DNA from: a virus
IMG/VR virus record: IMGVR_UViG_3300010384_000002
Reading direction: 5' to 3' (one strand)
Length of the DNA stretch: 64,000 bases
Positions 1 to 63,126 of the stretch are shown in pieces. The notes under the pieces were generated by a model. The model saw only the letters and a list, made by a program, of their open reading frames with translations, had not been told where the DNA came from and did not search any database. Positions within the stretch are counted from its first letter, which is position 1. Each line of letters begins with the position of its first letter. Made by a program: the position numbers and the translations under genes.

Positions 1-85
1 TCGGCACCGCCGTGGCCGAGCCGTACGCGCCGGCCGTGACCGCCGTGTTGGCCAGCGCGATCGTGGGGTTGCCCGCCACGCCGTC
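1..85 (-). repeat. Intragenic direct repeat, copy B (identical to 697-781)
   Basis: 85/85 nt identical, offset 696 nt (232 codons), within the tail fibre gene. Confidence 0.9.
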
Positions 86-1309
86 CGGGTTGGTGACACC
101 GATGCCCGTGCCAGCGGCGATCGAGCGCGCAGCCACCGCGCCGGCGCCCGTGCGCGTGACCATGCCGGTCGTTGCAAGCCCGGCCACGGCTGTGAGCGTG
201 GCATTCAGGGTCTGCGCATCCGTGATTCCATAGCCGGCCAGGGTGGTGGGCTTGCTGGTGATGTTGGCGAACGAATGGTTGTGCGAGTCGTCCGCGATCA
301 CCACCGGGATGGTGATGTTTGTCGATCCATCGAAATCGGCCTGCCCGGTGGCATCGCCGGACAGCGAGATGGTTCGCGAGTTGAGCAGGCGCGAGGTGGT
401 TTCTGCATTGCCGCTCAACTGGCCCGTGGTCGCGATCGTGACGCTGTTCGTTGCGGTATCCCACGACAACGAGACGTTCGCCCCAGCCTTGATGTTGAAC
501 AGGGCGCTCGACAGCCAGTCCAGCTTTTTGATCGTGCCGTCACCGATCTGCAGGGTGTGCGTATGCGACGTGGATGCCGCATCCGTGATGCCGTAGCCGG
601 CCACGGTCGTGGGTTTGCTGGTGATCGAGGCCCAGGCCGGCGCGACAGCGACCGAGCCGGCGGCGGTGAGGCGGCCCTGCGCGTCGACCGTGAAAGTCGG
701 CACCGCCGTGGCCGAGCCGTACGCGCCGGCCGTGACCGCCGTGTTGGCCAGCGCGATCGTGGGGTTGCCCGCCACGCCGTCACCGTTCGTGACGCTCATG
801 GCGTTGCCGGCGGTGATGGTGCGCGCCGCGATCACGCCCGCCGCCGTACGGCCGATCAGACCATTCGATGCGAGGTTCACGACGGCCGAGATGATGGCCG
901 GGGTGCCCGTGAGATTGCCGAATGCGTGCTGGTGGCTGTCGTCCACCACCGTAACGGTGATGGCGGCGTTCGAGCTGCCGTCGAAGGACACCGAGCCGGC
1001 GGCATCGCCCGTCAGACTGAGCGTGCGTGCCGTGGCCAGCTTCGTGGCGCTGCCGGCGTTGCCGGTGACGTTGGCCGGCAGCGCCGCATTGGCGTCCAGG
1101 CGCAGGATCTTGCCTGCCGCCGGTGCCGTGACGATATCGGCCGCCGTTGCATCGGCCGTGGCCTTTGCGGCGTTGGCCGTGGTCGTGACGGTGGTCATAT
1201 CCGTGTCGATCATGCCCAGCGCCGTGCGCAGGCGCGGGTTATCGAACGACAGCGCGTTATCCGTATGCGGCAGCGGATAGAGCCGGGTGATGGTGCTTTG
1301 ATCGTACAT
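1..1309 (-). CDS. Tail fibre protein, N-terminal ~436 codons (3' end runs off the window)
   Basis: My own reverse translation from ATG 1309 (MYDQSTITRLYPLPHTDNALSFDNPRLRTALGMIDTD...) stays open to nt 1, so it is absent from the ORF track. Repeated GDAxG..FDGSxN, DDSHxH and ITSKPTTxAGYGITDA motifs are typical of phage tail fibres. It is the last gene of the tail module. Confidence 0.8.
   Translation of the reverse strand, partial: MYDQSTITRLYPLPHTDNALSFDNPRLRTALGMIDTDMTTVTTTANAAKATADATAADIVTAPAAGKILRLDANAALPANVTGNAGSATKLATARTLSLTGDAAGSVSFDGSSNAAITVTVVDDSHQHAFGNLTGTPAIISAVVNLASNGLIGRTAAGVIAARTITAGNAMSVTNGDGVAGNPTIALANTAVTAGAYGSATAVPTFTVDAQGRLTAAGSVAVAPAWASITSKPTTVAGYGITDAASTSHTHTLQIGDGTIKKLDWLSSALFNIKAGANVSLSWDTATNSVTIATTGQLSGNAETTSRLLNSRTISLSGDATGQADFDGSTNITIPVVIADDSHNHSFANITSKPTTLAGYGITDAQTLNATLTAVAGLATTGMVTRTGAGAVAARSIAAGTGIGVTNPDGVAGNPTIALANTAVTAGAYGSATAVP
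697..781 (-). repeat. Intragenic direct repeat, copy A
   Basis: Identical to 1-85. Confidence 0.9.
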
Positions 1310-9435: not shown

Positions 9436-9480
9436 GATCCCATCGTGCTGTCACGACCAGGGGCCGGGAAGGCCTCGAAA

Positions 9481-30264: not shown

Positions 30265-30394
30265 GACGCAATCGTGCTGTCACGACTTTTGGCGCGGGGA
30301 AATTTGCAAACGAAAGGAAGGGGTAGCCAAAATTGCCGTAAGGAATCGTGGCTGTGATATTGTTCGATCCCCATGAATTTCACAGGGATAGCGC

Positions 30395-30766
30395 ATGAAC
30401 TGGAAGATAGGGGCCGTTCTGGCTCTGGTGGCAACGGTTTCGCGCGGCTCGGCGGCGGACTCGATGGAGGCGTATTTCGCGTATGCTTATTCGCCAATCG
30501 GCCGGGCTGGCCAATACACATACCTCGCGCATCAGCCTTGCGCCGACAAAGCGGCATCGAAGCTTGGATGGAGCCGGGCCGCCTTTTCCACCGCCGGGGG
30601 GGATCTGCTGCGTGCGTGCTGGCAAGATGTCAGCTCGGACAAGATCGGCAGCGCAGTACGTGTGTGCATGGTGAGCAGCGCCGATAAACTCGGAAACGCC
30701 TGCCGCTACATCAGCAAGCGCTATTTCCTTGACGCTGCCACGCTACCGCGCCGCCCGAAGTTCTAG
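30395..30766 (+). CDS. Exported small Cys-containing protein (moron)
   Basis: Has a signal peptide (MNWKIGAVLALVATVSRGSAA-D) and an AGGGA SD. It is on the opposite strand to the head operon, in a lower-GC region. Confidence 0.65.
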   Translation: MNWKIGAVLALVATVSRGSAADSMEAYFAYAYSPIGRAGQYTYLAHQPCADKAASKLGWSRAAFSTAGGDLLRACWQDVSSDKIGSAVRVCMVSSADKLGNACRYISKRYFLDAATLPRRPKF

Positions 30767-30792
30767 CCGCGTCATCTTACAAATCAACCCAC

Positions 30793-30821
30793 TTGTATCG
30801 TGATGCGATACGCTATACAAT
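30793..30821 (+). promoter_or_regulatory. higBA promoter with inverted-repeat operator
   Basis: TTGTAT-N17-TACAAT. The inverted repeat GTATCG-TGATG-CGATAC (30795-30811) lies in the spacer. Confidence 0.6.
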
Positions 30822-30828
30822 CAATTCC

Positions 30829-31107
30829 ATGATAAAAAACTTCGCTCACAAGGGACTGCAAAAGTTCTTCGAGACAGGCAGCAAGGCAGGCATCAAACCC
30901 GCACACGCCACCAGATTGAACCTGCAACTGGGCGCCCTCGACGCGGCAGTAAAGCCAGAGGATATGAACGTTCCGGGATGGGACTTTCATTCATTGAATG
31001 GTGACTTGAAAGGCCACTGGGCTGTCTCTGTGAACGGAAACTGGCGCGTGACCTTCACATTTGACGGCAAGGACGCTGTCGTTGTTGATTATCAGGATTA
31101 CCATTAA
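30829..31107 (+). CDS. higB: HigB toxin (RelE/ParE superfamily killer protein)
   Basis: [22 protein letters not shown]...[33 protein letters not shown] is the canonical HigB pattern. The track start TTG 30793 is over-extended. Confidence 0.85.
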
Positions 31108-31117
31108 GGAGTTGAAA

Positions 31118-31465
31118 ATGCGTATGCACAATCCCCCGCACCCCGGCCTGCTGGTCAAGGAATATTTGGGTGACGTTACCGTGACGGAGGCGGCCGAGCG
31201 CATGGACGTCAGCCGCGTCACGCTCCAGCGCATCGTGAGCGGTAACGCCGGCATCTCGCCGGACATGGCCTACCGCCTGAGCGATCTGTTTGGCACGAGT
31301 CACGAACTGTGGTTCAACCTACAGAAGAACTATGAGATGCACGTTGCCGGCATGGCCAAGCGGCCGCGCATTGCGCCCATCACCTCGCCGTTCAAGAAAA
31401 AGACGGCCGAGCGTATCGTATCGGCTCGACCGAAAAAGGCTACCGCATCCGCCACAGCAGCGTGA
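31118..31465 (+). CDS. higA: HigA antitoxin (XRE HTH)
   Basis: [17 protein letters not shown]...[58 protein letters not shown] at 31106-31111. Confidence 0.85.
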
Positions 31466-33500: not shown

Positions 33501-33873
33501 CGCCCGCCTTCTTCTTGCCCGGCGTGTGCGCCGTGACCTCGTGCCAGTGCACGCGATGCTCGCGGCCGGTGTCATCCGCCACCGTGGCGCCGTGCTCGCC
33601 GGCGGCGGACACTTCGCCCGAGCCATTGAACGCGCCGGCCGTGAACGCGACGTTGTCGCCCTCGGACACGTTGTGCGGGCCGAACTCGCCGCCGGCGGCG
33701 CAGGTCTTGAGCAGCGCCAGCAGTCCCACGAAATTCGGGTGCGACAGATCGACCTGCGGCTGCTTCGCGGCAGGCTTGTCCTGCCCCAGCTGGGCTTTGA
33801 GGTTCTTGTGGAAGTCGTCGGCCGCCTTCTTCTTGGCGCTGGGCGTGGGCAGCGCCTTGAACATCAGCATCAT
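33490..33873 (-). CDS. Hypothetical protein
   Basis: 127-aa ORF with an ATGA overlap with the portal stop. Confidence 0.55.
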   Translation of the reverse strand: MMLMFKALPTPSAKKKAADDFHKNLKAQLGQDKPAAKQPQVDLSHPNFVGLLALLKTCAAGGEFGPHNVSEGDNVAFTAGAFNGSGEVSAAGEHGATVADDTGREHRVHWHEVTAHTPGKKKAGDGK

Positions 33874-35645
33874 GGCATCAGGTCCTTGGGTTGGTAGACC
33901 GGCAGGCCGAACGCCTTGCCGAAATCGAAGTCGTTGCCGACGGCCGTCGGCGGCTCGCTGGTGGCCAGCTCCTTGGCGGCGCGCTTACCGGCGGGCGCCG
34001 GTTTGTCGTCATCGCCATCGGCGCCCTCGCCGTCGCCATCCTCCCCAGGTTGCGCAGCCTCGGGCGGCGTGATCAGGCCTTGCTGCTGCGCGCTGGCCAT
34101 GTACACCTGCATCAGGCTCGGGTTCACCGGCGCCTTGCCGATCAGCGGGTCCTCGTGCTCGGGCTGGCCATCGCGGGCGCGCATCTCGTCCACCGTCATG
34201 GTGAGCTTGCTGCGCTCGTGGCGCTTGTCCAGGTCCTCGGGGTCCAGGCCGGTGAAGCGGAACACCAGATCGGGCGAGAACTCCCCGACGACGTAGTCCG
34301 TGATCAGCTGCTGGAAGTACGACAGCAGAGGGCGCAGGCCGGAATCCTTCGAGGCGGTCAGTTTCTCCTCGGTGTCCGAGCCGGCCAGCGGGCTCGTGCT
34401 GCCGCCGCTGAACGAGTCGAAGTTGATTTCGGCCGGCGAGATCCCGTAAATCGCGCAGATCAGCGACGTGAGGAACGTCATCCACTTCGCGAAATACATC
34501 TCGTTGAACTCGACGTCGAATTTCTCGAACGAGGCCTTGCTTTTCTCGTCGGAGGAAACCATCACCGGCAGCGCCCAGGCGTTGTTCACGCCCTTGCACA
34601 TGGCATTCCAGTAGCGCTTGAAGGCGATGATGTCCTTGTCGTCGTACTTGCCGATGAGGTGCATCATCCCCTTGGGGATCGCGTTCGAGTCGAAGCCCTT
34701 GATGTTGTACGTCATGGCGTTCAGGTAGCCGGTGACGGTCTTCACCAGCAGCTCGACCTCGGAATGGCCATAGCCGGCCACCAGCACGTTGCTGCGCGGG
34801 TTGCGCGGCTCGTAGATCAGGTCGTCATGGGTGTATGGCGTGCAGATGCGGCCCTGCACCACCTGCAGGGCGAAGATGTCCGGGTTGCCTTGGTAGCCCT
34901 TGTCCGTGCACAGGCGGATCGTGGAGCCGTCGACGGCATAGAAGCCGGACACGCCCAGCTTCTTGTCGCGCTTCCATTCCACCTCGATCGCGGCCGAATC
35001 CATCGACAGCGTGTCGCGCGTGAGCTTGCCCATGAACTGGGCGAACGAGTCGCGGCCGAGCGCCTTGCGCAGGCGCGGCTTGAACTCCCAGCCGCAGTTC
35101 GAGATGAAGCGGTTCAGCTGGCGCACCTGCTCCTGCTCGGACTTCGTGAGGTGGTGGTCCTTGTCCATGTGGCGGATCTCGTAGCCGGGCAGGTCGTTGC
35201 CGCACTCGGACACCGCGCAAAAACGCTGCACCTGCCGCATGCGGGTGAGCACGACGGCCGACAGCACCGGGGTCTGATCCACGACCGCGCGCATCGAGTC
35301 GAACGACATCAGGCTGGGACGCTCCCAGTATTCCCCCTGCATGTTCAGCATGAACTCGTCGACCTGCACCGACTGCATGCCCGGCTTGCGGTTGCGCAGG
35401 TTGTTCGACGGGTACGGCACGATGTTGGCGCTCATCGCCTTGTTCACCATCAGGTGCTCGTCGGCCATGGCGAGAAAGTCGCGCAGGTGGCCCATGGGCG
35501 CCAGGTCGTTGGCGGTGGGCATATAGGCCTTTTGGAGCTCGGCAAGCGCATCGTTGCGCTCGTCCTGCGGAGCGTTCTGATTGAATGCCACCACGTCGGC
35601 GCGATCGCGCGCGCGGCCCCGGCGGCGCTGATGTTGGTCGGTCAT
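33870..35645 (-). CDS. Portal protein
   Basis: 591 aa. Size, position upstream of the MuF-like gene, and an acidic C-terminus are typical of portal proteins. It has an AGGAGG SD and a GTCGTGAC motif 32 nt upstream. Confidence 0.8.
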   Translation of the reverse strand: MTDQHQRRRGRARDRADVVAFNQNAPQDERNDALAELQKAYMPTANDLAPMGHLRDFLAMADEHLMVNKAMSANIVPYPSNNLRNRKPGMQSVQVDEFMLNMQGEYWERPSLMSFDSMRAVVDQTPVLSAVVLTRMRQVQRFCAVSECGNDLPGYEIRHMDKDHHLTKSEQEQVRQLNRFISNCGWEFKPRLRKALGRDSFAQFMGKLTRDTLSMDSAAIEVEWKRDKKLGVSGFYAVDGSTIRLCTDKGYQGNPDIFALQVVQGRICTPYTHDDLIYEPRNPRSNVLVAGYGHSEVELLVKTVTGYLNAMTYNIKGFDSNAIPKGMMHLIGKYDDKDIIAFKRYWNAMCKGVNNAWALPVMVSSDEKSKASFEKFDVEFNEMYFAKWMTFLTSLICAIYGISPAEINFDSFSGGSTSPLAGSDTEEKLTASKDSGLRPLLSYFQQLITDYVVGEFSPDLVFRFTGLDPEDLDKRHERSKLTMTVDEMRARDGQPEHEDPLIGKAPVNPSLMQVYMASAQQQGLITPPEAAQPGEDGDGEGADGDDDKPAPAGKRAAKELATSEPPTAVGNDFDFGKAFGLPVYQPKDLMP

Positions 35646-35721
35646 TGGAAATTTCCTCCTGATTCACTCACGCTACCGTCACGACCGGGCGGGGGATTGT
35701 TTCAATCAGGACAAAAAATCC

Positions 35722-35751
35722 TTGCGAAACTAACGCTTAGCGTTATATAGT
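35722..35751 (+). promoter_or_regulatory. Sigma70-like promoter with palindromic operator (cassette promoter 1)
   Basis: TTGCGA-N18-TATAGT. The spacer holds the palindrome TAACGC-TTA-GCGTTA (35731-35745). Confidence 0.65.
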
Positions 35752-35785
35752 CTCTCCATCGAATCACCTCATTGGAAGGCAGGAC

Positions 35786-36280
35786 ATGGACAAGAAACAG
35801 GCAATGGCGTTGGGCAAGGACATGGCGGCGGCGGTCAGCGAGGTACTGACCAAGCACGGGATCACGGGCGGCGTGGTGAGCGCCCTCGCGAGCCCGGCCG
35901 GCATCGGCATCACGGTAAAGCTGGCCGATGAGCAGCCGACCCCGAATGCCGTGTCGCGTTACAAAAAGTTCGGCGCCAAGCTGGGCCTGCCCTCGATCAA
36001 CACCATCATGCTGGTGGCCGACAAAGAATACGTGCTGATGGGCCTGTCGAGCGACGGCGCCCGCGTCAAGGCGAAACTGGCACAGCCGGGCGCCTCCATC
36101 ACCGACCTGCCGCTGGCGGCCGTACAGGCCGCGATCGCCGCCGCCGGCGCCAAACAGGTGGCCGAGCTGGATAAAGCCGAGCAGGCCCAGCCGGATGACG
36201 CGGTCGACCCGGACGTCGCCGCGTGGCTGCACGCGATCGGGAAGAAGGGCGCCGCCAATCCTGCGGAGGGCCAGCAGTGA
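35786..36280 (+). CDS. Hypothetical protein (first gene of the plus-strand accessory cassette)
   Basis: 164-aa ORF with a GGAAGG SD, downstream of an operator-bearing promoter. Confidence 0.6.
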   Translation: MDKKQAMALGKDMAAAVSEVLTKHGITGGVVSALASPAGIGITVKLADEQPTPNAVSRYKKFGAKLGLPSINTIMLVADKEYVLMGLSSDGARVKAKLAQPGASITDLPLAAVQAAIAAAGAKQVAELDKAEQAQPDDAVDPDVAAWLHAIGKKGAANPAEGQQ

Positions 36281-36477
36281 GCGAGCGCAACACCGACCAC
36301 GTGCGCCTGCTTGATGGGTGGTTCACCTGCCTGCACTGTGGCGCGCGCTACCAGATGAACCTGCCATGCCCTATCGACGTGTTCACCGCCGCCTGCAACG
36401 CCTATGTGGCTGTGCACGCGGGATGCACGCCCGGCCAGCAGGCGGCGCCAAGGATTCAATTCACCGCAAAAGGATAG
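36277..36477 (+). CDS. Small Cys-containing protein
   Basis: GTG 36277 is in a GTGA overlap. Sequence: VSERNTDHVRLLDGWFTCLHCGARYQMNLPCPIDVFTAACNAYVAVHAGC. Confidence 0.5.
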   Translation: MSERNTDHVRLLDGWFTCLHCGARYQMNLPCPIDVFTAACNAYVAVHAGCTPGQQAAPRIQFTAKG

Positions 36478-36485
36478 GAAATTCA

Positions 36486-36863
36486 ATGAAAAAAATGACC
36501 CATGCCGAATTCATGGACGAACTGCGTGCGCAGGGCGTCGAGCGCGATCACATGGCCGTGGTCTGCCCCATGTGCGGCACCGTGCAAAGCCCCACGTCGC
36601 TGATCCGCGCCGGCGCTGGCGCCGACTTCGAGGCGGTGGGCCGCTATGTCGGGTTCTCCTGCGTTGGGCGCTGGCGCGAGCCGCGCTTGAGCCCGGCCGA
36701 GGCCAAGGCGCTGGGCGAGCCCTGCAACTGGACCCTTGGCGGCCTGCTCCAGACCCACACCATGGAAGTCGTCACCGATGACGGCCGCTCGCACCCGCAT
36801 TTCGAGCCAGCCACACCCGAGCAAGCCCAGGCGCTGCGCGCCAAGCACGCGGAGACGGTATGA
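36486..36863 (+). CDS. VVA0879-family-like protein
   Basis: MKKMTHAEFMDELRAQGVERDHMAVVCPMCGTVQSPTSLIRAG... resembles the conserved VVA0879 family as I recall it. AGGA SD. Confidence 0.55.
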   Translation: MKKMTHAEFMDELRAQGVERDHMAVVCPMCGTVQSPTSLIRAGAGADFEAVGRYVGFSCVGRWREPRLSPAEAKALGEPCNWTLGGLLQTHTMEVVTDDGRSHPHFEPATPEQAQALRAKHAETV

Positions 36864-37180
36864 CCCAGTTTTACAACTACACGGCCCGGCTCAAGACCCG
36901 CAAGCAGATCGATGTCGAAATCCCGCGTCACCTGCAGGGCTGGTGGGCGGACGTCTGCCCCGGCAAGGTGCTGGAAAACCTGCGTGACGCGACGGCCGCC
37001 GATCTGGCGCGCTGCAACCTGAACGAGCTGGCGTCGCGCGACCCGGCCGATTACCTGTGCGAGGACATCGAGCGCGGGGCGCTGATCAGCCGCGAGGCGA
37101 TCCTGTGGCTGCGCATCAAGGTGCCCACGGCGTTCACCGGCGCCCACAAGCTAGCGGAAATGCTTGCGTCTGACGCTTAG
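36860..37180 (+). CDS. Hypothetical protein
   Basis: 106-aa ORF with an ATGA overlap. Its 3' end carries the second cassette promoter. Confidence 0.55.
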   Translation: MTQFYNYTARLKTRKQIDVEIPRHLQGWWADVCPGKVLENLRDATAADLARCNLNELASRDPADYLCEDIERGALISREAILWLRIKVPTAFTGAHKLAEMLASDA

Positions 37181-37192
37181 CGTTAGTATAGT
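37164..37192 (+). promoter_or_regulatory. Sigma70-like promoter with palindromic operator (cassette promoter 2)
   Basis: TTGCGT-N17-TATAGT. The spacer holds ACGCTTAGCGT (37173-37183). It is nearly identical to the promoter at 35722. Confidence 0.65.
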
Positions 37193-37225
37193 CAAGCTAA
37201 TTCATATTAAGTTCATATTTTAATC

Positions 37226-37924
37226 ATGGGAAAAACGGATGATGCAGTATGCCCGCTTGAGGTGGTTGGGCACGTCGACGTGCCGGCCGCCGTGCTGGAG
37301 CATCGGTTTGTGCGCGAGGCGCTGGCGTGCGTGCGCGTGCTCAAGGAGCGTCGCGACGAGGAGGGCGCCCAGGGCAACGAGGTGGTGGGCACGGAAAACA
37401 CCGGCGAGGTCGAGCTGTATGGCTGGGCCGACAACGTGCCGAACCACGTCGACAACAAGGGGTTCATCTACTTCGTGGCGCTGAACCCAGGCAAGACCAT
37501 GGTCGAATGCATCCGAGGCGAGGAGACGCACGGCGTGATGCTCGCGCAGGGCGCCGTGGTGCGCCTGAACGATTACTGGGAGCACTGGACCATCGATACC
37601 GAGTCGCGCGTGTGCGCGTTCATCGGCAGCTTCGACGAGCCCTGTGAAGAATGGGCGATCAACAGGCTCACGGCCGCCATCGAGGCGCTGGACAATGGCG
37701 ACTACTACGGCGCGCCGCGCGTGGGCAAAGGGTTCCGCGTGTATGGCGACGACGAGTGTCTGGTGCCGTCCGGGCCGGACATGGACGTGCGCCCGATGCT
37801 GCTGGCCGACGCGAAGGCGCAAGGCCTCGATTACGTGCAGTGCAGCCACTGCGACAAGCCGGCTGCAATCATGGATCATCACTGGCCGTACGATACGGAT
37901 TGCAGGTGCTATGGCCACCGTTGA
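37226..37924 (+). CDS. Hypothetical protein with HxD...H pattern and Cys-rich C-terminus
   Basis: 232 aa with PNHVDNKG...EHWTIDTESR and a C-terminal CSHCDKPAAIMDHHWPYDTDCRCYGH. No SD. It has an AT-rich leader. Confidence 0.55.
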   Translation: MGKTDDAVCPLEVVGHVDVPAAVLEHRFVREALACVRVLKERRDEEGAQGNEVVGTENTGEVELYGWADNVPNHVDNKGFIYFVALNPGKTMVECIRGEETHGVMLAQGAVVRLNDYWEHWTIDTESRVCAFIGSFDEPCEEWAINRLTAAIEALDNGDYYGAPRVGKGFRVYGDDECLVPSGPDMDVRPMLLADAKAQGLDYVQCSHCDKPAAIMDHHWPYDTDCRCYGHR

Positions 37925-38006
37925 TTTTATGCAATTCTTTGGTGCAACTAACGCAAAACGTAAGGTCCCCTGCTACAATGCCGCCATCGGATTACAAGGA
38001 CAGGCC

Positions 38007-38258
38007 ATGACGGCAGAAGAAACTCGCGAAAACGACAACGACGGCTTCCCCACGAAAGAGGAAGTGGCGGAAGCACGGCGTATCGCCGGCGTCAGCCAAG
38101 AGCGCGCGGCGCAGTTGGTGGGTCTGACGTCTCATACCCGTTGGAGCGAATACGAGCGCGGCGTCCGCCGCATGGACCCGATGCGGTTCGAGATGTTCAA
38201 GATCAAGACCGGCCAGCATCCCGACTACGTGCCCCGTGGTCAGGCCATCACCTCTTAG
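38007..38258 (+). CDS. XRE/Cro-type HTH regulator
   Basis: MTAEETREND...AGVSQERAAQLVGLTSHTRWSEYERGVRRMDPMRFEMFKIKTG. AAGGA SD 6 nt upstream. The track ORF from 37644 is over-extended. Confidence 0.75.
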   Translation: MTAEETRENDNDGFPTKEEVAEARRIAGVSQERAAQLVGLTSHTRWSEYERGVRRMDPMRFEMFKIKTGQHPDYVPRGQAITS

Positions 38259-40929
38259 GCATCCAGAAAAAGCACGCCACGTCGCGAGCGCGCACCCTTA
38301 GCTCGCGCTCCAGGCAGTACTCCGCATCCGGGTCGAAGTTCTCGCACCCGCCGCAGGTCCCCATCTCCTCCACCATCTGCTGCTGTTCCGCGATCGCCTT
38401 GACCACCGGGCTGTTCGCCACCGCGCCGGCATTGGCCGTCGCCGTTGCCGGCTTGCTCTCCTCGGGGAACAGGAACATGGTCACGCCGTGCGCGCGCGCC
38501 CAGGCCACGTTCAGCAGCATGTAGGCGTACGAAAAGTGCGGGTCGATGCCGACCTTGACCACGCGCCGCGTGTATTTCTTTTCCTCGTCGTCCTTCTCGA
38601 CCACCAGGGCGGTGCGCGTGAAGTGCATGAACACGCGGTCCTTGAGCAGTGCGATGCGCACGCGCTCGCCCTTCGTGCCCTTTTCCAGCACCTCCTGATG
38701 CAGGCCGTCCGGGTTCGGGAACACCGTCACCTTGTTCTGGATGCGCTTCATGGCGACCTGCATGCACTTGTACTGGTCGAGCATGACGCTGTAGCGGTCT
38801 CGATCCTCCTCGTCGGTTTTTCTTTCGGCGTTCGACAGCGCGGCATCACCCCACCGCATCATGTCGTCGTCAATTTTTTGATAGCCGGCCAGGAACACCT
38901 TGCCGGGGTGACGGTTGGCGAAGCGCTTGGCGTCGTTGTAGTTCGGCAGTGTCTCGACCACGCAAACAGAGATGCCGTACTGCTCCATGAGCTCGTCGCA
39001 CCGATCGAACGGGCTGGCTTCCGGGTTTTCCGGCGTGGGCTGCGTCAGGATCTCCTCGACGTGCACGATGCCCAGGTGGCCCGTGGGCATGCGAATACCG
39101 ATGATGGCGACGTTGTACCCGCCCATCTGGTCGATGCCCATGTAGGCGCCGCTCGCGCGCGCCATCCATTGCAGGCCCAGGCGCATGCCCTCGGCCGCGC
39201 AGGCGTTAAGCATTTCGAGGTTCACCGGCACCTGTGACGGGTCGGTGTACGGCTTGCCCAGCACGCGGTTCCAGAAGTTCTTGAGGTCGTCCGCGTTGTG
39301 GTACTTGGTGATGATGTTGCGCGCGCTGATCGTGGGCGACAGGAATTGCGGGAAGTGCAGCGACACCGGCAGGATCGTGCCGTCCGCATCGACCCAGCGC
39401 TGCACCTCGATGGTGTTCTTCTTGTCGGTCGCGATCGTGACCCACTGGAGCGTGCCACGATGCGCGCGCCATTCGCCAATTTGCGGATCGTCGATCCAGC
39501 CATCGCAGCTCTTGCACACGTAGCGGTATTCCCGCGTGTCGTCGTCGTACCGGATGCAGGCAGGGAAGTACGAGTCGAGCGCGTGGTGTTCGCCGCAGTT
39601 CGGGCACAGCGTCCAGAACTGGTGCATCGTGCCCTGCTTGTACAGCCAGTCGATATCCTCGTCCGGCCAGTTCGCGGTCGACCCAGCCAGGGTGAACTTG
39701 ATGCGCGAGCCCGAGAGACGTTCTTTCGTCTTCTCGATCTGCTCCTTCGTCATCTCCTGCACCTCGTCCAGGGACAGGACGTCCAGCGGGATCGATTCGG
39801 TGGCGCCCTTGCCCGAGGTCCACATGAAGTGAAAGCGCGAGCGGCCCATGACGCGCACCAGCACATTGCCCTCGCCCTTGCTGGCGCCGGTGACAGCGTC
39901 GGTGGTGAGCAGCTGGTGGGCGGCCGGGATGGTGCGCAGGATCGGCATGAAGCGAATGGAGGACTTCACGCCGGCGAGGTTCATGTCCGGCAGGTACATG
40001 CCGATCTTGCACGGCATGAACTTGATGGCCATGTAGATCATGGCCAGCATCTCCATGACGGTGAACCCGACCTGCGTGCACTTCATCATCACCACGATGC
40101 GCTCGAACGCTTCCTCGATCGTTCCGGGGATCTGGTCGTACACGAACCACATGGCCGGCCGGTTATCGAGCTCGAACGGCATGTCGTCCACTTGCAGGCC
40201 GCTGGCGGCCAGGCGCAAGCACCAGTCGCGGAACGACTCGTCGGGCCCGATGATGGCCTGTTCGTCGGTGAGCTCGATGCCGTCGACGAAGGCGCCGCAC
40301 CGTTCCTGCTGGAAGGCCTCGGGCTTCATCCGCGCGCGATCGCGCTCCAGGGCCTCCATGTCAGCGTGCGGGTTCTCCTCCGTGGCCATGTGGAACACGG
40401 CGCTGTCCCGATCATCGTCGGCCATCCGGGCCATGCGCGCGAAGTCGTTGAACATGCCGGCCGGCTTGCCGAAGAACCACGCGCGGCCACGGTATCGGGT
40501 CAGCAGCGGTTCGATCGCGTTGGCCCAGGCGTCGGCCAGCTGCTCGATGTGCGGCGCGTCGTCGACGACGACCAGGGCGAACTGGTCCCACAGCCGGAAC
40601 GGCTTGTCCATGGCCACCAGCTGGATGACGCCGCCGCCGGTGCGCAGCACGATGCGATCGCGGTCCATGCGGCTCTGCGCGGAAATCAGCGGCTCGATCA
40701 TGCCGTAGATGCGGCGCTTGACCGCGTCGACCTCGTTTTCGGAGGGCAGCAGGATGGCGACGGGGAAGCCCCGGATGGCGCCGAACTTGGACGCCAGGGC
40801 GATGTCGATGGCCAGGGTCGTCTTGCCCGAGTCAATGCCGCCGGCCACGACGTTGAAGCGCGCCGGCGACGCGGCAATCCGCGCCTGCAGGGGAGTGAGC
40901 TTGGGGAGCTTGATGCGGAGTTCAGCCAC
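38248..40929 (-). CDS. Terminase large subunit: N-terminal Terminase_6-like ATPase fused to a complete GpA-type terminase
   Basis: The first module has Walker A GGIDSGKT, Walker B LVVVDD and ...FQQERCGAFVD. It is followed by the KCTQVGFT P-loop, a CPNCGEHH...CKSCDG zinc ribbon and a nuclease region typical of lambda gpA-like terminases. The proposed start is GTG 40929 (GAGG SD). ATG 41076 would need ~49 low-GC3 codons that contain regulatory motifs. Confidence 0.75.
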   Translation of the reverse strand: MAELRIKLPKLTPLQARIAASPARFNVVAGGIDSGKTTLAIDIALASKFGAIRGFPVAILLPSENEVDAVKRRIYGMIEPLISAQSRMDRDRIVLRTGGGVIQLVAMDKPFRLWDQFALVVVDDAPHIEQLADAWANAIEPLLTRYRGRAWFFGKPAGMFNDFARMARMADDDRDSAVFHMATEENPHADMEALERDRARMKPEAFQQERCGAFVDGIELTDEQAIIGPDESFRDWCLRLAASGLQVDDMPFELDNRPAMWFVYDQIPGTIEEAFERIVVMMKCTQVGFTVMEMLAMIYMAIKFMPCKIGMYLPDMNLAGVKSSIRFMPILRTIPAAHQLLTTDAVTGASKGEGNVLVRVMGRSRFHFMWTSGKGATESIPLDVLSLDEVQEMTKEQIEKTKERLSGSRIKFTLAGSTANWPDEDIDWLYKQGTMHQFWTLCPNCGEHHALDSYFPACIRYDDDTREYRYVCKSCDGWIDDPQIGEWRAHRGTLQWVTIATDKKNTIEVQRWVDADGTILPVSLHFPQFLSPTISARNIITKYHNADDLKNFWNRVLGKPYTDPSQVPVNLEMLNACAAEGMRLGLQWMARASGAYMGIDQMGGYNVAIIGIRMPTGHLGIVHVEEILTQPTPENPEASPFDRCDELMEQYGISVCVVETLPNYNDAKRFANRHPGKVFLAGYQKIDDDMMRWGDAALSNAERKTDEEDRDRYSVMLDQYKCMQVAMKRIQNKVTVFPNPDGLHQEVLEKGTKGERVRIALLKDRVFMHFTRTALVVEKDDEEKKYTRRVVKVGIDPHFSYAYMLLNVAWARAHGVTMFLFPEESKPATATANAGAVANSPVVKAIAEQQQMVEEMGTCGGCENFDPDAEYCLERELRVRARDVACFFWMPKR

Positions 40930-40958
40930 TGGGTGCCTCTGGTAGATCGAGGCACCCA
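40930..40958 (-). promoter_or_regulatory. 10-bp perfect hairpin abutting terminase GTG 40929
   Basis: TGGGTGCCTC-N9-GAGGCACCCA then GTG. The GAGG SD lies in the 3' arm. Confidence 0.7.
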
Positions 40959-41109
40959 GTGTTGCGTCACGACTCTGATTATCAGAGGGAAGTGGCCGAA
41001 CGGACGCTGCAGGGCGGGGCTCGGACCAACTGGGCGAATTTGCGAAATGCCCCTGATTATCACGGACATTTTGCATCTAACCGACGTAACGCCTCCTCTC
41101 CCCTATAAA

Positions 41110-45228: not shown

Positions 45229-45933
45229 TTAGGCGGCCTGTTTCAGCTTGGAATCCAGCAGCGTGCGGGCGATCGCCTTGCCGGCCAGCTTGAAGCTGAC
45301 GCGGGCGGCGCCCTTGCGAACGATGCCCATCACGCGGACAGTGCCGGCCGAGGTTTGCAGGCTGCGCTCGACGTCCCAGTCGTTGCTGCCGGCGTGCTCG
45401 CCGCACAGCTTGCGCACGTCGGCCACCAGCTGGTCCAACTTGACGAGCTCGTCGTTCGCCGGCTTCTCGTGCTGGCGGGTGCTGATCGCCGGGCCGAACT
45501 GGCCGGCGGACGCGAACCGCGCCACGGCCGAGGTGCTGGCCGAGGTGCGGGCCGTGCTGGCCATCTCCAGTGAGCGCTGCACGGGCGCCGGGCGGGCGTT
45601 GTGGTAACGCGAGTAGGGACGCTGCGGCTGCAGGCGCGCCATGATGCCCCACACGCTGTTGTACGCCGTATGCAAGCCGTGGTCTCGAGTCGAGCCCTTG
45701 AAGTTGCGGTAGGTGATGCTGGAGAGGTGAGTGGCGATGGTCGCACCCACGAGCTTGCGCGGGATCAGCGCGCGGAACTGGTAGTCGCGGCCGTCCAGGG
45801 TTTCGGCCGTGTGGCCGGGGAAGATGCGCTCGATGTCGCCAGGGCGGCGAGCGCGCACCAGCAGGTTATCGACGTCGCGCAGGTCTTCCGGGCTGACGAT
45901 CGACAGGAATGCGTTGTTGAGGCAGATCCACAT
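45229..45933 (-). CDS. Hypothetical protein
   Basis: 234 aa (MWICLNNAFLSIVSPEDLRDVDNLLVRARRPGDIERIF...). Its GGAAGGAG SD lies inside an 8-bp leader hairpin. Confidence 0.6.
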   Translation of the reverse strand: MWICLNNAFLSIVSPEDLRDVDNLLVRARRPGDIERIFPGHTAETLDGRDYQFRALIPRKLVGATIATHLSSITYRNFKGSTRDHGLHTAYNSVWGIMARLQPQRPYSRYHNARPAPVQRSLEMASTARTSASTSAVARFASAGQFGPAISTRQHEKPANDELVKLDQLVADVRKLCGEHAGSNDWDVERSLQTSAGTVRVMGIVRKGAARVSFKLAGKAIARTLLDSKLKQAA

Positions 45934-45985
45934 GGGTGACTCCTTCCGTTGAAGTGTTGTTCGACGGAAGGAATCATAACCGACA

Positions 45986-46002
45986 CTAACGCTAAGCGCT
46001 AG
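45986..46002. promoter_or_regulatory. Third copy of the operator palindrome
   Basis: CTAACGCTAAGCGCTAG overlaps the Nudix gene stop, upstream of gene 45229..45933. Confidence 0.5.
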
Positions 46003-46961
46003 TCTTTTTTCATATTAAGTTCATCGCCAAGCGATAGGATTTTCCGATCAACTTCCGTGTTCAGAACGGACGGCAATTGGTCCCTCGGAACGAGCTTGAC
46101 GGCCTGCGCTTCCCAGCCCATGTGCGCCGGCGAGCCGCCCACGCGCCGGGCGCGGTAGTAGCGCGCCACGGTGGTGGTGCGCTCGATGTCGCCCCAGTAG
46201 CCGGTGATTTCCACCTGCAGCCCGGTTTCCTCGAACGTCTCCTTGATGGCCACGGCTTGGAACGACAGGCCCGGCTCGTGGCGCCCCTTCGGGAACGTGG
46301 CCTCGTAGCCGCCGAACTGGTTGGTTGGGCACATGACCCACACGCGGCCGTCGGGCTCCTCGATGATGACGCCGGCGGCGCGCTCCTTGGGTTTGCCGCT
46401 CGCGGCCTTGGCCACCTTCATCAGCGGCTCGTCCAGGTCCTGCATCTGGCCGGGGACGTTGGCCCAGCCCTCGGGCGAGGTCGGCGCATCCTCCCACGGC
46501 GCGAACGCGACGCCGCCCAGCTCGGCCGGCACATCGCAATCGGGCACGAACGTGGCCACGGCCTTGGGGTCCGCCCAGGTGTCCGGAGGGCTCTGTTCGC
46601 TCGGCTCGTTGATGGTTATGGTCTCGCCCTTATCGCCCTCCTGCGGGTGCGTGATCGCATTCGGGTATTTGGGCGCCGCCGGCGCCGCATCGAACAGGTC
46701 GTCGGCCCACTTCTTGGCGGCCGGCTTGCCGCCGTACTGCGGACCGACCACGCCCTTGGGCTTCATGAACAGGGCCAGCTGCTTGCCCTTGGCGTGCACC
46801 TTCGTCTCGTGCGCGGGCACGAATGTGCCGTCGCCCTTGGTGTAGGCGGCCACGTGGGCCTTGGCCAGCGGCATGTTCATCTTGACGCTTTGCGCCATGC
46901 CGATCAGTTTGCCATCGAAGAACACGACCACCTTGCCGCTATTGATCATGCCTCCCATCAT
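45999..46961 (-). CDS. Nudix hydrolase with N-terminal extension
   Basis: The real start is MMGGMINSGK at ATG 46961 (ATGA overlap). Nudix box: GRHEPGLSFQAVAIKETFEETGL. Confidence 0.75.
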   Translation of the reverse strand: MMGGMINSGKVVVFFDGKLIGMAQSVKMNMPLAKAHVAAYTKGDGTFVPAHETKVHAKGKQLALFMKPKGVVGPQYGGKPAAKKWADDLFDAAPAAPKYPNAITHPQEGDKGETITINEPSEQSPPDTWADPKAVATFVPDCDVPAELGGVAFAPWEDAPTSPEGWANVPGQMQDLDEPLMKVAKAASGKPKERAAGVIIEEPDGRVWVMCPTNQFGGYEATFPKGRHEPGLSFQAVAIKETFEETGLQVEITGYWGDIERTTTVARYYRARRVGGSPAHMGWEAQAVKLVPRDQLPSVLNTEVDRKILSLGDELNMKKD

Positions 46962-62919: not shown

Positions 62920-62925
62920 GTGGCG

Positions 62926-63126
62926 TCACGACTTTTGCCAGGGATGGCTTTTCGCTTCCTCTTTCACGATGGCCATGGCCTCGGCCGCCGACTTGCCGTT
63001 GATCCGGATCAGCTGCTTCATGCGCGTGACCATCCACGCCACCTCATCGGCTGGGATGCCGGCCAGCTCGCCCAGCATCGCCACGCCGTTGTATGTGCCG
63101 TCGCCATTGGCCCAGCGCTCGATCAT
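62926..63126 (-). CDS. Hypothetical protein
   Basis: 66-aa ORF. Its stop TGA lies inside a GTCGTGAC motif. Confidence 0.5.
   Translation of the reverse strand: MIERWANGDGTYNGVAMLGELAGIPADEVAWMVTRMKQLIRINGKSAAEAMAIVKEEAKSHPWQKS

What the first reader, a model, noticed from the sequence alone, without database searches (positions are those of the whole stretch)
35686..38258. An inverted six-gene accessory cassette between terminase and portal has an acr-aca-like architecture
Terminase and portal genes are normally adjacent. Here they are separated by about 2.6 kb on the opposite strand. The six genes are at 35786-36280, 36277-36477, 36486-36863, 36860-37180, 37226-37924 and 38007-38258.

Two near-identical sigma70-like promoters drive the cassette:
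- CTTGCGAAACTAACGCTTAGCGTTATATAGTC at 35721.
- CTTGCGTCTGACGCTTAGCGTTAGTATAGTC at 37163.

Each has a palindrome, ACGC-TTA-GCGT, in the spacer. The last gene is a small XRE HTH regulator.

This arrangement has small genes of unknown function (several with Cys motifs), strong promoters with inverted-repeat operators, and a terminal HTH autoregulator, all embedded in the head module. That is the arrangement known for anti-CRISPR/anti-defence loci (acr-aca) in Mu-like and other phages. None of the five upstream proteins is one I can assign. This makes the cassette a candidate for an undescribed anti-defence or superinfection-exclusion module.
Basis: inference. Interest (0 to 1): 0.75.

Follow-up and report, generated by a model that had tools for sequence, protein, structure and literature searches.

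The report
Aca10-like regulated phage accessory operon
Between the terminase and portal genes of a roughly 95-kb phage lies a swappable six-gene operon whose promoters carry a palindromic operator and whose last gene resembles a known anti-CRISPR-operon repressor (Aca10), so it is a good but unproven place to look for new anti-defence genes.

Summary
Six + strand genes lie between portal and TerL. Two near-identical sigma70-type promoters each carry ACGC-TTA-GCGT in the spacer, and the last gene is a small HTH protein.

New evidence:
- **Regulator.** The HTH protein's best solved relative is Aca10 (PDB 7XI5), at 43% identity, with the critical Arg44 conserved.
- **Hotspot.** In relatives the TerL-portal gap ranges from 14 bp to 9.3 kb. 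There it holds RtcB, a NARP1-type Prs/Nampt pair, tRNAs or methyltransferases. g3, g4 and g5 are absent from this slot in every relative.
- **Recurring design.** The layout -35 / ACGC-N3-GCGT / -10 plus an Aca10-like gene recurs in related phages and in an unrelated island next to smpB.

Against a strict acr-aca reading:
- The same operator marks at least two more promoters outside the cassette (P4 at 45973-46001, and P5 beyond the window). The regulator therefore looks like a shared early-promoter repressor.
- No cargo protein matches a known Acr.
- g3 belongs to the widespread VVA0879 family of unknown function, with no fold match in the PDB.
- g5 is a 232-aa acidic cupin-fold protein with an invariant HxD...H triad and a Cys3His motif.

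Verdict: an Aca10-like-regulated early accessory operon in a recombination hotspot. An anti-defence cargo is plausible but unproven.

The parts
33870..35645 (-). Portal gene, the conserved left flank of the hotspot
   Evidence: PF04860 at E 3.6e-16 and phrog_12 at E 2.9e-39. 51 related loci were found with it.
35721..35752 (+). Promoter P1 (TTGCGA, 18 nt, TATAGT), with operator TAACGCTTAGCGTTA at 35731-35745 in the spacer. It drives g1-g4.
   Evidence: The same design occurs at the same place in relatives L059, L010, L028 and L026, with conserved arms and a variable centre.
35786..36280 (+). g1, 164 aa, unknown function, conserved in the closest relatives
   Evidence: 64% identical in L059 and 49% in L010, at the same position. 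No Pfam, NCBIfam, PADLOC or PDB match. GC3 0.88.
36277..36477 (+). g2, 66 aa, Cys-rich (CxxC...C...C), conserved together with g1
   Evidence: 53-76% identical in L059 and L010. No family or PDB match.
36486..36863 (+). g3, 125 aa, VVA0879-family protein with four invariant Cys; swapped cargo
   Evidence: NF041591 at 94.7 bits against a cut-off of 37. phrog_32023 at E 6.3e-47. 573 homolog clusters. AF2 pLDDT 94 with no PDB fold match, best E 2.3. Absent from this slot in every relative.
36860..37180 (+). g4, 106 aa, unknown function; swapped cargo. Its last ~22 codons and its stop codon run into promoter P2.
   Evidence: Homologs in five viral contigs cover only residues 4-84. One lies elsewhere in a related phage genome (L067, the same contig as L015). 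The TAG stop lies inside the palindrome.
37163..37193 (+). Promoter P2 (TTGCGT, 17 nt, TATAGT), with operator TGACGCTTAGCGTTA at 37171-37185. It drives g5.
   Evidence: It is followed by the 16-mer TTCATATTAAGTTCAT (about 37204-37219), which is also found next to the P4 operator.
37226..37924 (+). g5, 232 aa, acidic (pI 4.7). Cupin or double-stranded beta-helix fold with invariant H74-x-D76...H120, plus C206, C209, C228 and H231; swapped cargo.
   Evidence: 42 homolog clusters with no Pfam domain. Invariant residues. AF2 pLDDT 93. Foldseek hits to cupins and 2OG oxygenases at E ~1e-5 and TM ~0.3. pI.
37949..37979 (+). Promoter P3 for g6. It has a degenerate operator TAACGCAAAACGTAA (37949-37963) over the -35 region and an extended -10, TGcTACAAT (37971-37979).
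   Evidence: It is conserved in L059 as AACTAACGCAAAAGGTAAGTGGCCTGTTACAAT, although the reading frame differs there. That argues against the 115-aa upstream start.
38007..38258 (+). g6, 83 aa, Aca10-like HTH_31 protein and the predicted repressor of the operators
   Evidence: PDB 7XI5 (Aca10) at E 8.8e-7. 43% identity over 54 aa, with Arg44 conserved. Homologs lie next to TerL in L059, L028, L016, L073 and L074, and mid-slot in L020.
38248..41076 (-). TerL (942 aa), the conserved right flank of the hotspot, convergent with g6
   Evidence: PF05876 at E 9e-17 and phrog_675 at E 2.7e-77.
45973..46001 (-). Promoter P4 outside the cassette: operator TAGCGCTTAGCGTTA, then 8 nt, then TATGAT. Its leader resembles those of P1 and P3. 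It lies upstream of a 234-aa gene (45229-45933) and about ten small genes leading towards TerL.
   Evidence: An equivalent site occurs in L059 at 952. The downstream genes have no known function.

Best explanation
The region is a host-sigma70-transcribed accessory operon. It sits in a recombination hotspot between TerL and portal of a roughly 95-kb phage of the PHB04/ST4/Dolphis-like group.

Its last gene, g6, encodes an Aca10-like helix-turn-helix protein. As a dimer, g6 is predicted to bind the palindrome TAACGC-N3-GCGTTA.

In P1 and P2 the palindrome fills the spacer between -35 and -10, so binding would exclude RNA polymerase. In g6's own weak promoter P3, a degenerate copy overlaps the -35 region.

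The expected behaviour is a burst of g1-g5 expression on entry, followed by shut-off once g6 accumulates. That shut-off would also stop transcription running head-on into TerL.

The same operator marks at least two more promoters elsewhere in the genome (P4 and P5). g6 is therefore best read as the shared repressor of the phage's early, accessory promoters. The cassette is one unit of that regulon and happens to carry the regulator.

The cargo is modular. g1 and g2 are clade-conserved. g3 (VVA0879 family), g4 and g5 (a cupin-fold metalloprotein with a Zn knuckle) are swapped in.

By analogy with what relatives carry in the slot, the cargo most likely serves host takeover or counter-defence.

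Shown: the gene and promoter anatomy, the homology to Aca10, the hotspot, and the recurrence of the design. Inferred: DNA binding by g6, repression, early timing, and any anti-defence role of g1-g5.
For: **Regulator.**
- g6's best PDB relative is Aca10 (7XI5), at E 8.8e-7 and 43% identity. The DNA-binding Arg44 is conserved.
- Relatives' g6 homologs reach 49% identity to Aca10.
- Aca10 is shown experimentally to bind a palindrome with arms ATACGC/GCGTAT that overlaps the -35 and -10 elements of its operon's promoter.

**Operator.**
- The operator is far above chance: 4 hits against 0.08 expected, plus P5.
- It always lies in promoter-like context.
- Its arms are conserved and its centre varies across relatives. 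TTA, AAA, TAT, AAT and ATT are all seen.

**Recurrence of the design.**
- Among phages with a g6 homolog and the portal-proximal region available, four have perfect arms, one is degenerate and one has none.
- The design recurs in L075 as promoter/operator, three small genes, then a g6 homolog.
- It recurs in L076, an island beside smpB, as two tandem promoter/operator units, each with a gene of about 100 aa, followed by a g6 homolog.

**Hotspot.**
- The slot ranges from 14 bp to 9.3 kb.
- g3, g4 and g5 are absent from it in every relative.

**What relatives carry in the slot.**
- RtcB, at E 4e-129.
- A Prs-family plus NAPRTase/NAMPT_N pair. This is the Pfam signature of NARP1. It sits adjacent to the g6 homolog in L020 and in the Pararobbsia phage L074.
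- tRNAs in ST4.
- A methyltransferase in PHB04.

**A separate HTH/palindrome pairing.** The HigBA cassette, with its own HTH, has its own different palindrome. This supports pairing each HTH with the palindrome next to it.
Against: - No binding or expression data exist.
- g6 is only 43% identical to Aca10, below the 50% used to define Aca10 homologs in PMC9410906. [quoted passage not shown]
- The operator's arms are 3 bp apart, against 7 bp in the Aca10 site.
- L016 has a g6 homolog but no such palindrome. L023 has the palindrome but no detectable g6 homolog.
- In P3 and P4 the operator overlaps a poor -35 region, which could mean activation rather than repression.
- No cargo protein resembles a known anti-defence protein.
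- g1 and g2 are conserved rather than variable.
- About 22 kb of the source contig could not be read, so the size of the regulon is unknown.
Confidence: 0.55

Rival explanations
1. It is a genuine, dedicated acr-aca locus. One or more of g1-g5 is an anti-CRISPR, and g6 is its Aca.
For: - g6 is homologous to Aca10.
- The operator lies in the core promoter, as at acr-aca promoters.
- The genes are small, on the same strand and tightly spaced.
- g5 is very acidic, as many Acrs are.
- L075 and L076 show the classic short-operon layout.
Against: - No Acr homolog was detectable, although the PDB sequences and Foldseek are all that could be searched.
- g5 is 232 aa and has an invariant metal triad, which is unlike a stoichiometric Acr.
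- The operator also occurs at P4 and P5, outside the locus.
- In relatives the slot's identifiable cargo (RtcB, NARP1-type pair, tRNAs, methyltransferase) targets defences other than CRISPR.
- The host and its CRISPR type are unknown.
Confidence: 0.12
2. It is a moron or lysogenic-conversion module of a temperate or plasmid-like phage. The sigma70 promoters would express g1-g5 from the resident prophage, for example for superinfection exclusion or host fitness. g6 would act as an immunity-type (CI/Cro-like) repressor of early promoters.
For: - A close relative of L028 lies inside a 2.46-Mb bacterial MAG contig. Another relative forms a whole 90,347-bp scaffold of a Pararobbsia isolate assembly.
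- The genome carries a ParA-like gene, a resolvase and a HigBA cassette with its own promoter. These are typical of plasmid-prophages.
- Operators at several early-type promoters fit a Cro/CI-like role.
- VVA0879 and g5 homologs occur in prophage early regions near integrases and in phage-plasmids.
Against: - No integrase or CI-type long repressor was found in the parts read.
- No lifestyle information was retrieved for the isolated relatives PHB04, ST4 and Dolphis. Their records show only host and isolation source.
- A repressor that shuts off its own operon's strong promoters would not sustain expression of those genes in a lysogen.
- No membrane or exclusion-type protein is present among g1-g5.
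Confidence: 0.15
3. It encodes ordinary early functions unrelated to defence, such as nucleic-acid or protein modification by the g5 dioxygenase-like enzyme, or host-takeover factors. g6 would be a general early-to-late switch that represses early promoters and may activate P4 or the divergent portal promoter.
For: - g1 and g2 are conserved.
- g5 has an enzyme-like invariant triad and a cupin fold.
- P3 and P4 carry the operator over a poor -35, a position compatible with activation.
- The P1 operator lies about 85 bp upstream of the portal ATG, in a 140-bp divergent region.
- P1, P3, P4 and P5 share a leader.
Against: - g3, g4 and g5 are dispensable in every relative. Some relatives have no insert at all, with slots of 14-144 bp. 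The cassette therefore cannot carry a core function.
- g6 itself is absent from many relatives.
Confidence: 0.13
4. The palindromes are not g6 operators. They could be bound by a host factor or another phage protein, or be a by-product of promoter duplication.
For: - There is no direct evidence for binding.
- L023 has the palindrome without a g6 homolog, and L016 has the reverse.
- P1 and P2 could simply be duplicates.
Against: - The arms are conserved while the centre and flanks diverge across ten promoters in independent elements, all linked to g6 homologs.
- The arms resemble those of the proven Aca10 site.
- A degenerate copy lies immediately upstream of g6 in two phages.
- The palindromes lack a T-run and a stable GC stem, so they are not terminators.
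Confidence: 0.05

Closest known systems
acrIC7-acrIC6-aca10 operon of Pseudomonas citronellolis (Aca10, PDB 7XI5; PMC9410881, PMC7913775)
   Same: - The small HTH_31 regulator is homologous (43% identity, Arg44 conserved) and is encoded last in a same-strand operon of small genes.
- A palindrome with (T/A)ACGC / GCGT(T/A) arms lies within the core sigma70 promoter, between -35 and -10.
- The predicted outcome is autorepression.
   Different: - The arms are 3 bp apart, not 7.
- There are two operator-bearing promoters plus a third weak one within the locus.
- The same operator occurs at promoters elsewhere in the genome.
- There is no recognisable Acr.
- One cargo gene is a 232-aa enzyme-like protein.
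- The locus lies in the head module of a large phage.
Phage accessory regions and anti-defence gene clusters flanked by core genes (for example Pinilla-Redondo et al. 2020, cited in PMC9410906; accessory-gene hotspots, bioRxiv 10.1101/2023.04.06.535777)
   Same: - The flanks (TerL and portal) are conserved while the content is highly variable, from 14 bp to 9.3 kb.
- Relatives carry a NARP1-type pair, RtcB, tRNAs or a methyltransferase in the slot.
   Different: - The location between terminase and portal, in opposite orientation, is particular to this phage group.
- The anti-defence function of the window's own cargo has not been shown.
Lambda-type Cro and the controller (C) proteins of restriction-modification systems
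   Same: A small dimeric HTH protein, encoded in the early transcription unit, binds palindromic operators in several promoters and turns early expression down. Weak PDB hits to C.BclI and C.Csp231I were seen at E 0.4-0.7.
   Different: - No partner CI repressor or bistable switch was identified.
- The sequence relationship is to Aca10/HigA2-like HTH_31 proteins, not to Cro.
- The C-protein similarity is not significant.
NARP1 (Adps + Namat) NAD+ reconstitution operon (bioRxiv 10.1101/2024.02.11.579819)
   Same: Relatives L020 and L074 carry a two-gene Prs-family plus Nampt-family pair, the NARP1 Pfam signature. It lies in the same slot, beside the Aca10-like gene.
   Different: It is not present in the window. 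Assignment in the relatives rests on domain content and gene order only.

Membership tests
acr-aca operon | HTH regulator homologous to a validated Aca family | tested here: met
   g6 against Aca10 (7XI5): E 8.8e-7 in the PDB search, 43% identity over 54 aa, Arg44 conserved.
acr-aca operon | Inverted-repeat operator inside the core promoter of the operon | tested here: met
   TAACGC-TTA-GCGTTA lies in the spacers of P1 and P2, with a degenerate copy in P3. Binding itself was not tested.
acr-aca operon | At least one gene homologous to a known or validated Acr | tested here: not met
   g1-g5 have no PDB sequence match. g3 and g5 models have no Acr fold match. PADLOC, Pfam and NCBIfam give nothing relevant. 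No dedicated Acr database was available, and the AcrIC6/AcrIC7 sequences could not be retrieved.
acr-aca operon | AcaFinder short-gene-operon rules: same strand, gaps under 250 bp, all proteins under 200 aa, HTH under 150 aa (PMC9765179) | tested here: not met
   Same strand: yes. Largest gap: 82 bp. HTH: 83 aa. g5 is 232 aa, so the size rule fails.
acr-aca operon | Inhibition of a CRISPR-Cas system by a cargo protein | not testable with these tools
   Requires plaque or CRISPRi assays.
Aca10 family | At least 50% identity and 80% coverage to Aca10, the cut-off used in PMC9410906 | tested here: not met
   43% identity over 54 of 65 residues for g6. Relatives reach 49%. g6 is best called Aca10-like.
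Aca10 family | Recognition of the 19-21 bp palindrome ATACGCTCATTGAGCGTAT | tested here: not met
   The arms are of the same type (ACGC/GCGT; ATACGC/GCGTAT in L076), but they are separated by 3 bp instead of 7.
VVA0879 family (NF041591 / PF28055), for g3 | Score above the curated NCBIfam cut-off | tested here: met
   94.7 bits against a cut-off of 37, E 2.8e-27. Four invariant Cys.
Cupin / Fe(II)-2OG dioxygenase superfamily, for g5 | Double-stranded beta-helix fold with an HxD/E...H metal triad | tested here: inconclusive
   H74, D76 and H120 are invariant in 41 sequences. The AF2 model has pLDDT 93. Foldseek hits to cupins and 2OG oxygenases reach E ~1e-5, but TM is only ~0.3. No Pfam 2OG or cupin model matches.
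Phage accessory hotspot | Conserved flanking core genes with variable content between relatives | tested here: met
   19 different slot lengths, from 14 bp to 9,335 bp, between TerL and portal. Contents are unrelated.

The most novel reading that the evidence does not exclude
The sigma70 promoter with the ACGC-N3-GCGT operator may be a portable regulatory plug that accompanies, or captures, newly acquired cargo genes.

Three observations point this way:
- P2-g5 looks like a chimera of the left half of P1 with an inverted flank of P4.
- g4 reads into P2.
- L076 has tandem promoter-gene units.

If so, a single Aca10-family repressor would time a modular, genome-wide counter-defence regulon. The palindromic operators would double as recombination joints.

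Under this reading, g3 (the widespread VVA0879 family) and g5 (a cupin-Zn enzyme) would be new anti-defence effectors.
Probability: 0.22. Interest if true: 0.7.

Novelty: new variant of a known kind. Interest (0 to 1): 0.5.

Why it matters
If the reading holds, this phage group offers a well-delimited slot where counter-defence cargo is exchanged. The slot can be found by an anchor: TerL, portal, the Aca10-like gene and its operator.

The anchor could be used for guilt-by-association discovery of new anti-defence genes. Immediate candidates are g1, g2, g4, the very widespread but uncharacterised VVA0879 family (more than 570 clusters), and a conserved cupin-Zn protein also found in Pseudomonas aeruginosa plasmids.

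It would also extend what Aca-type repressors are known to do. They would move from autoregulating one acr operon to timing several early promoters across a phage genome.

If the reading does not hold, the region is an ordinary early accessory operon with a Cro-like repressor.

Tried and rejected
**Searches that gave nothing useful**
- PADLOC, Pfam and NCBIfam on g1-g5 gave nothing beyond VVA0879 for g3.
- PHROGs gave only families of unknown function.
- PDB sequence searches of g1-g5 found nothing significant.
- A word-indexed homolog search with g6 returned only 7 close relatives and added little.
- No paper mentions VVA0879. The phage group (PHB04 and relatives) has almost no literature.

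**A comparison that could not be made**
- I tried to get AcrIC6/AcrIC7 sequences from León et al. to compare with g1-g5. Only accession numbers are held, so the comparison was not possible.

**An error caught**
- My crude GC3 gene caller first picked the antisense ORFs under g5 and g6, because of a start-choice bug.
- Explicit per-position GC shows that the + strand frames are the coding ones.

**Readings considered and rejected**
- *The 115-aa g6 start called by JGI.* The upstream extension is the P3 promoter, and its frame is not conserved in L059. A Shine-Dalgarno sequence precedes the 83-aa start in both phages.
- *Palindromes as terminators.* They have no T-run and sit inside promoter spacers.
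- *A conserved morphogenetic role.* The cassette is absent in relatives.
- *HigA as the binder of the palindrome.* The HigBA cassette has its own, different palindrome.

**Limits**
- Proteins outside the window cannot be looked up. About 22 kb of the contig (record positions 73613-95435 and 1-731) could not be scanned for more operators.

Full report
**Source and setting**

The window is positions 732-64731 of a 95,435-bp JGI metagenome contig, 3300010231 Ga0136216_1000100. It is a phage genome.
- Portal (33870-35645, -) and a 942-aa large terminase (38248-41076, -) are clearly identified.
- The nearest isolated relatives are 90-95 kb phages: Aeromonas ST4, Pseudomonas Dolphis, Jeremy and Touem01, and Bordetella PHB04. 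TerL DNA identity is 66-73%.
- Related elements occur in Burkholderiales. One is a whole 90,347-bp scaffold of Pararobbsia silviterrae DHC34. Another lies inside a 2.46-Mb betaproteobacterial MAG contig.

**Checking the observation**

JGI and Logan call them independently as genes.
- All six have the GC3 >> GC2 signature of coding sequence in this 65% GC genome: GC3 0.76-0.88, against 0.89-0.92 for TerL and portal.
- The genes are tightly packed, with gaps of -4, 8, -4, 45 and 82 bp. g6 overlaps the TerL stop convergently by 11 bp.
- Both promoter sequences are present as quoted.
- The exact 11-mer ACGCTTAGCGT occurs only at these two places in 64 kb. With one mismatch allowed it hits three loci (five strand hits) against 0.73 hits expected, and no shuffle out of 100 reaches that.
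- The extended 15-mer TAACGC-N3-GCGTTA with up to one mismatch gives 4 hits against 0.08 expected.

**The regulator**

g6 matches HTH_31 only marginally: 26.4 bits against a cut-off of 27. Its best match among all solved structures is chain 7XI5_A at E 8.8e-7, which is Aca10 of Pseudomonas citronellolis.
- Identity is 43% over 54 residues. Arg44, the residue shown to be critical for DNA binding, is conserved.
- g6 homologs in related phages are up to 49% identical to Aca10.
- Aca10 is an experimentally characterised dimeric repressor of the acrIC7-acrIC6-aca10 operon. It binds a palindrome, AATACGCTCATTGAGCGTATT, which overlaps the -35 and -10 elements of a strong promoter.
- The palindrome here has the same type of arms, (T/A)ACGC and GCGT(T/A), and also lies within the core promoter, between -35 and -10. 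Its arms are 3 bp apart rather than 7.

By the 50%-identity rule used in PMC9410906, g6 is Aca10-like rather than a family member. That paper also warns that Aca-like genes are common and often not linked to acrs.

**The slot is a hotspot**

Using the portal protein, I fetched 51 related viral loci.
- Where both flanks are present, the TerL-portal gap takes 19 different sizes, from 14 bp (adjacent genes) to 9,335 bp.
- g3, g4 and g5 are absent from the slot in every relative.
- g1 and g2 are kept next to the portal in the closest relatives, L059 and L010.
- g6 homologs lie next to the TerL 3' end in L059, L028/29, L016, L073 and L074, and mid-slot in L020, upstream of its Prs/Nampt pair.
- The closest relative, L059 (TerL 79% identical), has g1, g2, four different genes and then g6. 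One of the four is a Phage_ProQ_C_like protein.

Other relatives carry the following in the slot:
- RtcB RNA ligase, E 4e-129.
- A CxxCxxCC protein, Ead/Ea22 and NinX.
- tRNAs in ST4.
- A DNA methyltransferase in PHB04.
- A recombinase and a 'holin' in Dolphis.
- In L020 and in the Pararobbsia element, a Prs-family gene followed by a NAPRTase/NAMPT_N gene, immediately beside the g6 homolog.

That last two-gene Pfam signature is how the anti-defence pathway NARP1 (Adps + Namat) was recognised. The slot therefore repeatedly holds genes of the counter-defence type. This is supporting evidence by association, not proof for g1-g5.

**The operator and its design recur**

The portal-proximal divergent promoter keeps the same architecture in relatives:
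- L059: CTTGCGGAACTAACGCAAAGCGTATATAGTT.
- L010: CTTGCGCAACTTACGCTATGCGTTATATAGTC.
- L028: GTTGCGCGAATCACGCAATGCGTTAGAATTC.
- L026: TTGCCGGGGTTACGCATTGCGTCAATAATC.

The arms are conserved and the 3-bp centre varies, which is the pattern expected of a protein-binding site.

Outside this phage lineage the design appears again.
- L075 has CTTGAAccagcTTACGCTATGCGCTAtatttg, then three small genes, then a g6 homolog.
- L076 is an island beside smpB in a betaproteobacterial MAG. It has two tandem units, CTTGACaagaagatACGCAATGCGTatatttt followed by a 104-aa gene, and CTTGACtaaaatatACGCCTTGCGTatattta followed by a 102-aa gene. A g6 homolog follows.

Exceptions exist. L020 has a degenerate right arm. 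L016 has g6 but no such palindrome. L023 has the palindrome but no detectable g6.

**The regulon is wider than the cassette**

Besides P1 and P2, three further copies of the operator were found.

*P3, upstream of g6.*
- A degenerate copy, TAACGCAAAACGTAA, lies just upstream of g6, over the -35 region of an extended -10 promoter (TGcTACAAT).
- This arrangement is conserved in L059, although the reading frame is not. Both phages have a Shine-Dalgarno sequence before the 83-aa start.
- This supports the 83-aa g6 and its own weak, probably autoregulated promoter P3.

*P4, outside the cassette.*
- A further copy, TAGCGCTTAGCGTTA followed by 8 nt and TATGAT, lies at 45973-46001 on the - strand.
- It sits between a NUDIX gene and a block of about ten small unknown genes that leads towards TerL. 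An equivalent site occurs in L059.

*P5, beyond the window.*
- A perfect copy lies about 5.5 kb beyond the window's right end, directly after a terminator hairpin.
- It reads CTTGTAaacTAACGCTGAGCGTTAtattat.
- It heads an operon of about 19 small genes that includes an HNH protein and an N6/N4 methyltransferase.

P1, P3, P4 and P5 also share a leader motif (CCATCGAA..AC) after the -10. g6 is therefore better described as the shared regulator of the phage's early or accessory sigma70 promoters than as a private Aca of one operon.

**The cargo**
- **g3** is a VVA0879-family protein, at 94.7 bits against a cut-off of 37.
  - It has four invariant Cys and more than 570 homolog clusters in bacteria, plasmids and phages.
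  - Its homologs lie among early or 'nin-like' accessory genes. One lies next to a Lar restriction-alleviation gene in a Serratia phage-plasmid. One is annotated as particle-associated in a Yersinia phage.
  - Its AF2 model is confident (pLDDT 94) but has no fold match in the PDB, best E 2.3.
- **g5** has 42 full-length homolog clusters without any Pfam domain.
  - Some are on P. aeruginosa plasmids, and one lies in a prophage next to an integrase.
  - H74, D76, H120, C206, C209 and C228 are invariant, and H231 is nearly so.
  - The AF2 model (pLDDT 93) is a cupin or double-stranded beta-helix. It hits cupin isomerases and Fe(II)/2OG oxygenases at E ~1e-5, but with TM only ~0.3.
  - It is very acidic, pI 4.7.
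  - It is most likely a metal-dependent enzyme with a C-terminal Zn knuckle. Its substrate is unknown.
- **g4** has homologs in five viral contigs covering only residues 4-84. One lies elsewhere in a related phage genome. Its last ~22 codons and its stop codon run into P2.
- **g1 and g2** have no informative match.

**A possible trace of how the cassette was built**

The 16-mer TTCATATTAAGTTCAT follows the P2 operator, in the 5' leader of g5. It also follows the P4 operator on the + strand, where it encodes the C-terminus of the NUDIX protein on the other strand. P2 thus looks like the left half of P1 joined, at the palindrome, to an inverted flank of P4. Together with g4 reading into P2, this suggests that the palindromic operators serve as recombination joints. 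This is inference only.

**Conclusion**

A strict acr-aca assignment fails on testable criteria:
- There is no Acr homolog.
- One protein exceeds 200 aa.
- The operators are not confined to the locus.

The best-supported reading is an early accessory operon in a recombination hotspot. Its expression would be pulsed by an Aca10-like repressor that also controls other early promoters. Counter-defence is the most likely, but unproven, role for the cargo.

Noticed in passing
window 30395-31465 (+), promoter about 30793-30820: This is a second opposite-strand cassette inside the head module. It holds a 123-aa protein with a signal-peptide-like N-terminus, a HigB-like toxin (92 aa) and an HTH_3 antitoxin (113 aa). 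It has its own promoter, TTGTAT-17-TACAAT, carrying a different palindrome, GTATCG-TGATG-CGATAC. GC content drops to 0.57 here.
   Followed up: partly
window 35681-35688, 30277-30284, 62923-62930, 9448-9455; also upstream of portal in L059, L016, L020: The motif GTCGTGAC (read on the - strand, often preceded by CAAAA) recurs shortly upstream of - strand gene starts, including the portal. It is conserved in relatives. It may be a late promoter or another regulatory element.
   Followed up: no
window 37204-37219 and 46009-46024: An exact AT-rich 16-mer, TTCATATTAAGTTCAT, occurs twice, each time just after an operator copy. One copy is in the g5 leader. The other overlaps the last codons of the NUDIX gene on the opposite strand. 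This suggests recombination at the palindromes.
   Followed up: partly
L072 3316-3350 (source contig about position 70288, outside the window): This is a fifth operator-bearing promoter (P5), placed directly after a terminator hairpin. It heads an operon of about 19 small genes that includes an HNH protein, an N6_N4 methyltransferase and a gp49_66 protein.
   Followed up: partly
L072 12838-14658 (source contig, outside the window): A ParA-like (CbiA/MipZ) gene and a small serine resolvase lie here. With the HigBA module, and with relatives found as a whole scaffold of a Pararobbsia isolate and inside a 2.46-Mb MAG contig, this hints at a temperate or plasmid-prophage lifestyle.
   Followed up: no
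window 38248-41076 (-): TerL is unusually long at 942 aa. An extra N-terminal P-loop region of about 270 aa matches phrog_2 at residues 58-278. In PHB04 the TerL match begins only at about residue 279 of this protein, and a separate 217-aa gene lies just upstream of PHB04's shorter TerL, so this may be a fusion. The homology of the N-terminal region to that upstream gene was not tested.
   Followed up: no
window 1-202 and 697-898: A 202-nt direct repeat, 79% identical and spaced 696 nt apart, lies at the left edge of the window. It is probably a repeated domain in a structural (fibre-like) gene.
   Followed up: no
window 38272-38293 (-): A GC-rich hairpin followed by a T-run on the - strand lies inside the last codons of TerL, just beyond the g6 stop. 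It could be a bidirectional terminator for the convergent g6 and TerL transcripts.
   Followed up: no
L007 6989-7378 (Yersinia phage fHe-Yen8-01): The VVA0879 (g3) homolog of this phage is annotated as a 'particle associated protein'. If that annotation holds, members of this family may be packaged into virions.
   Followed up: no
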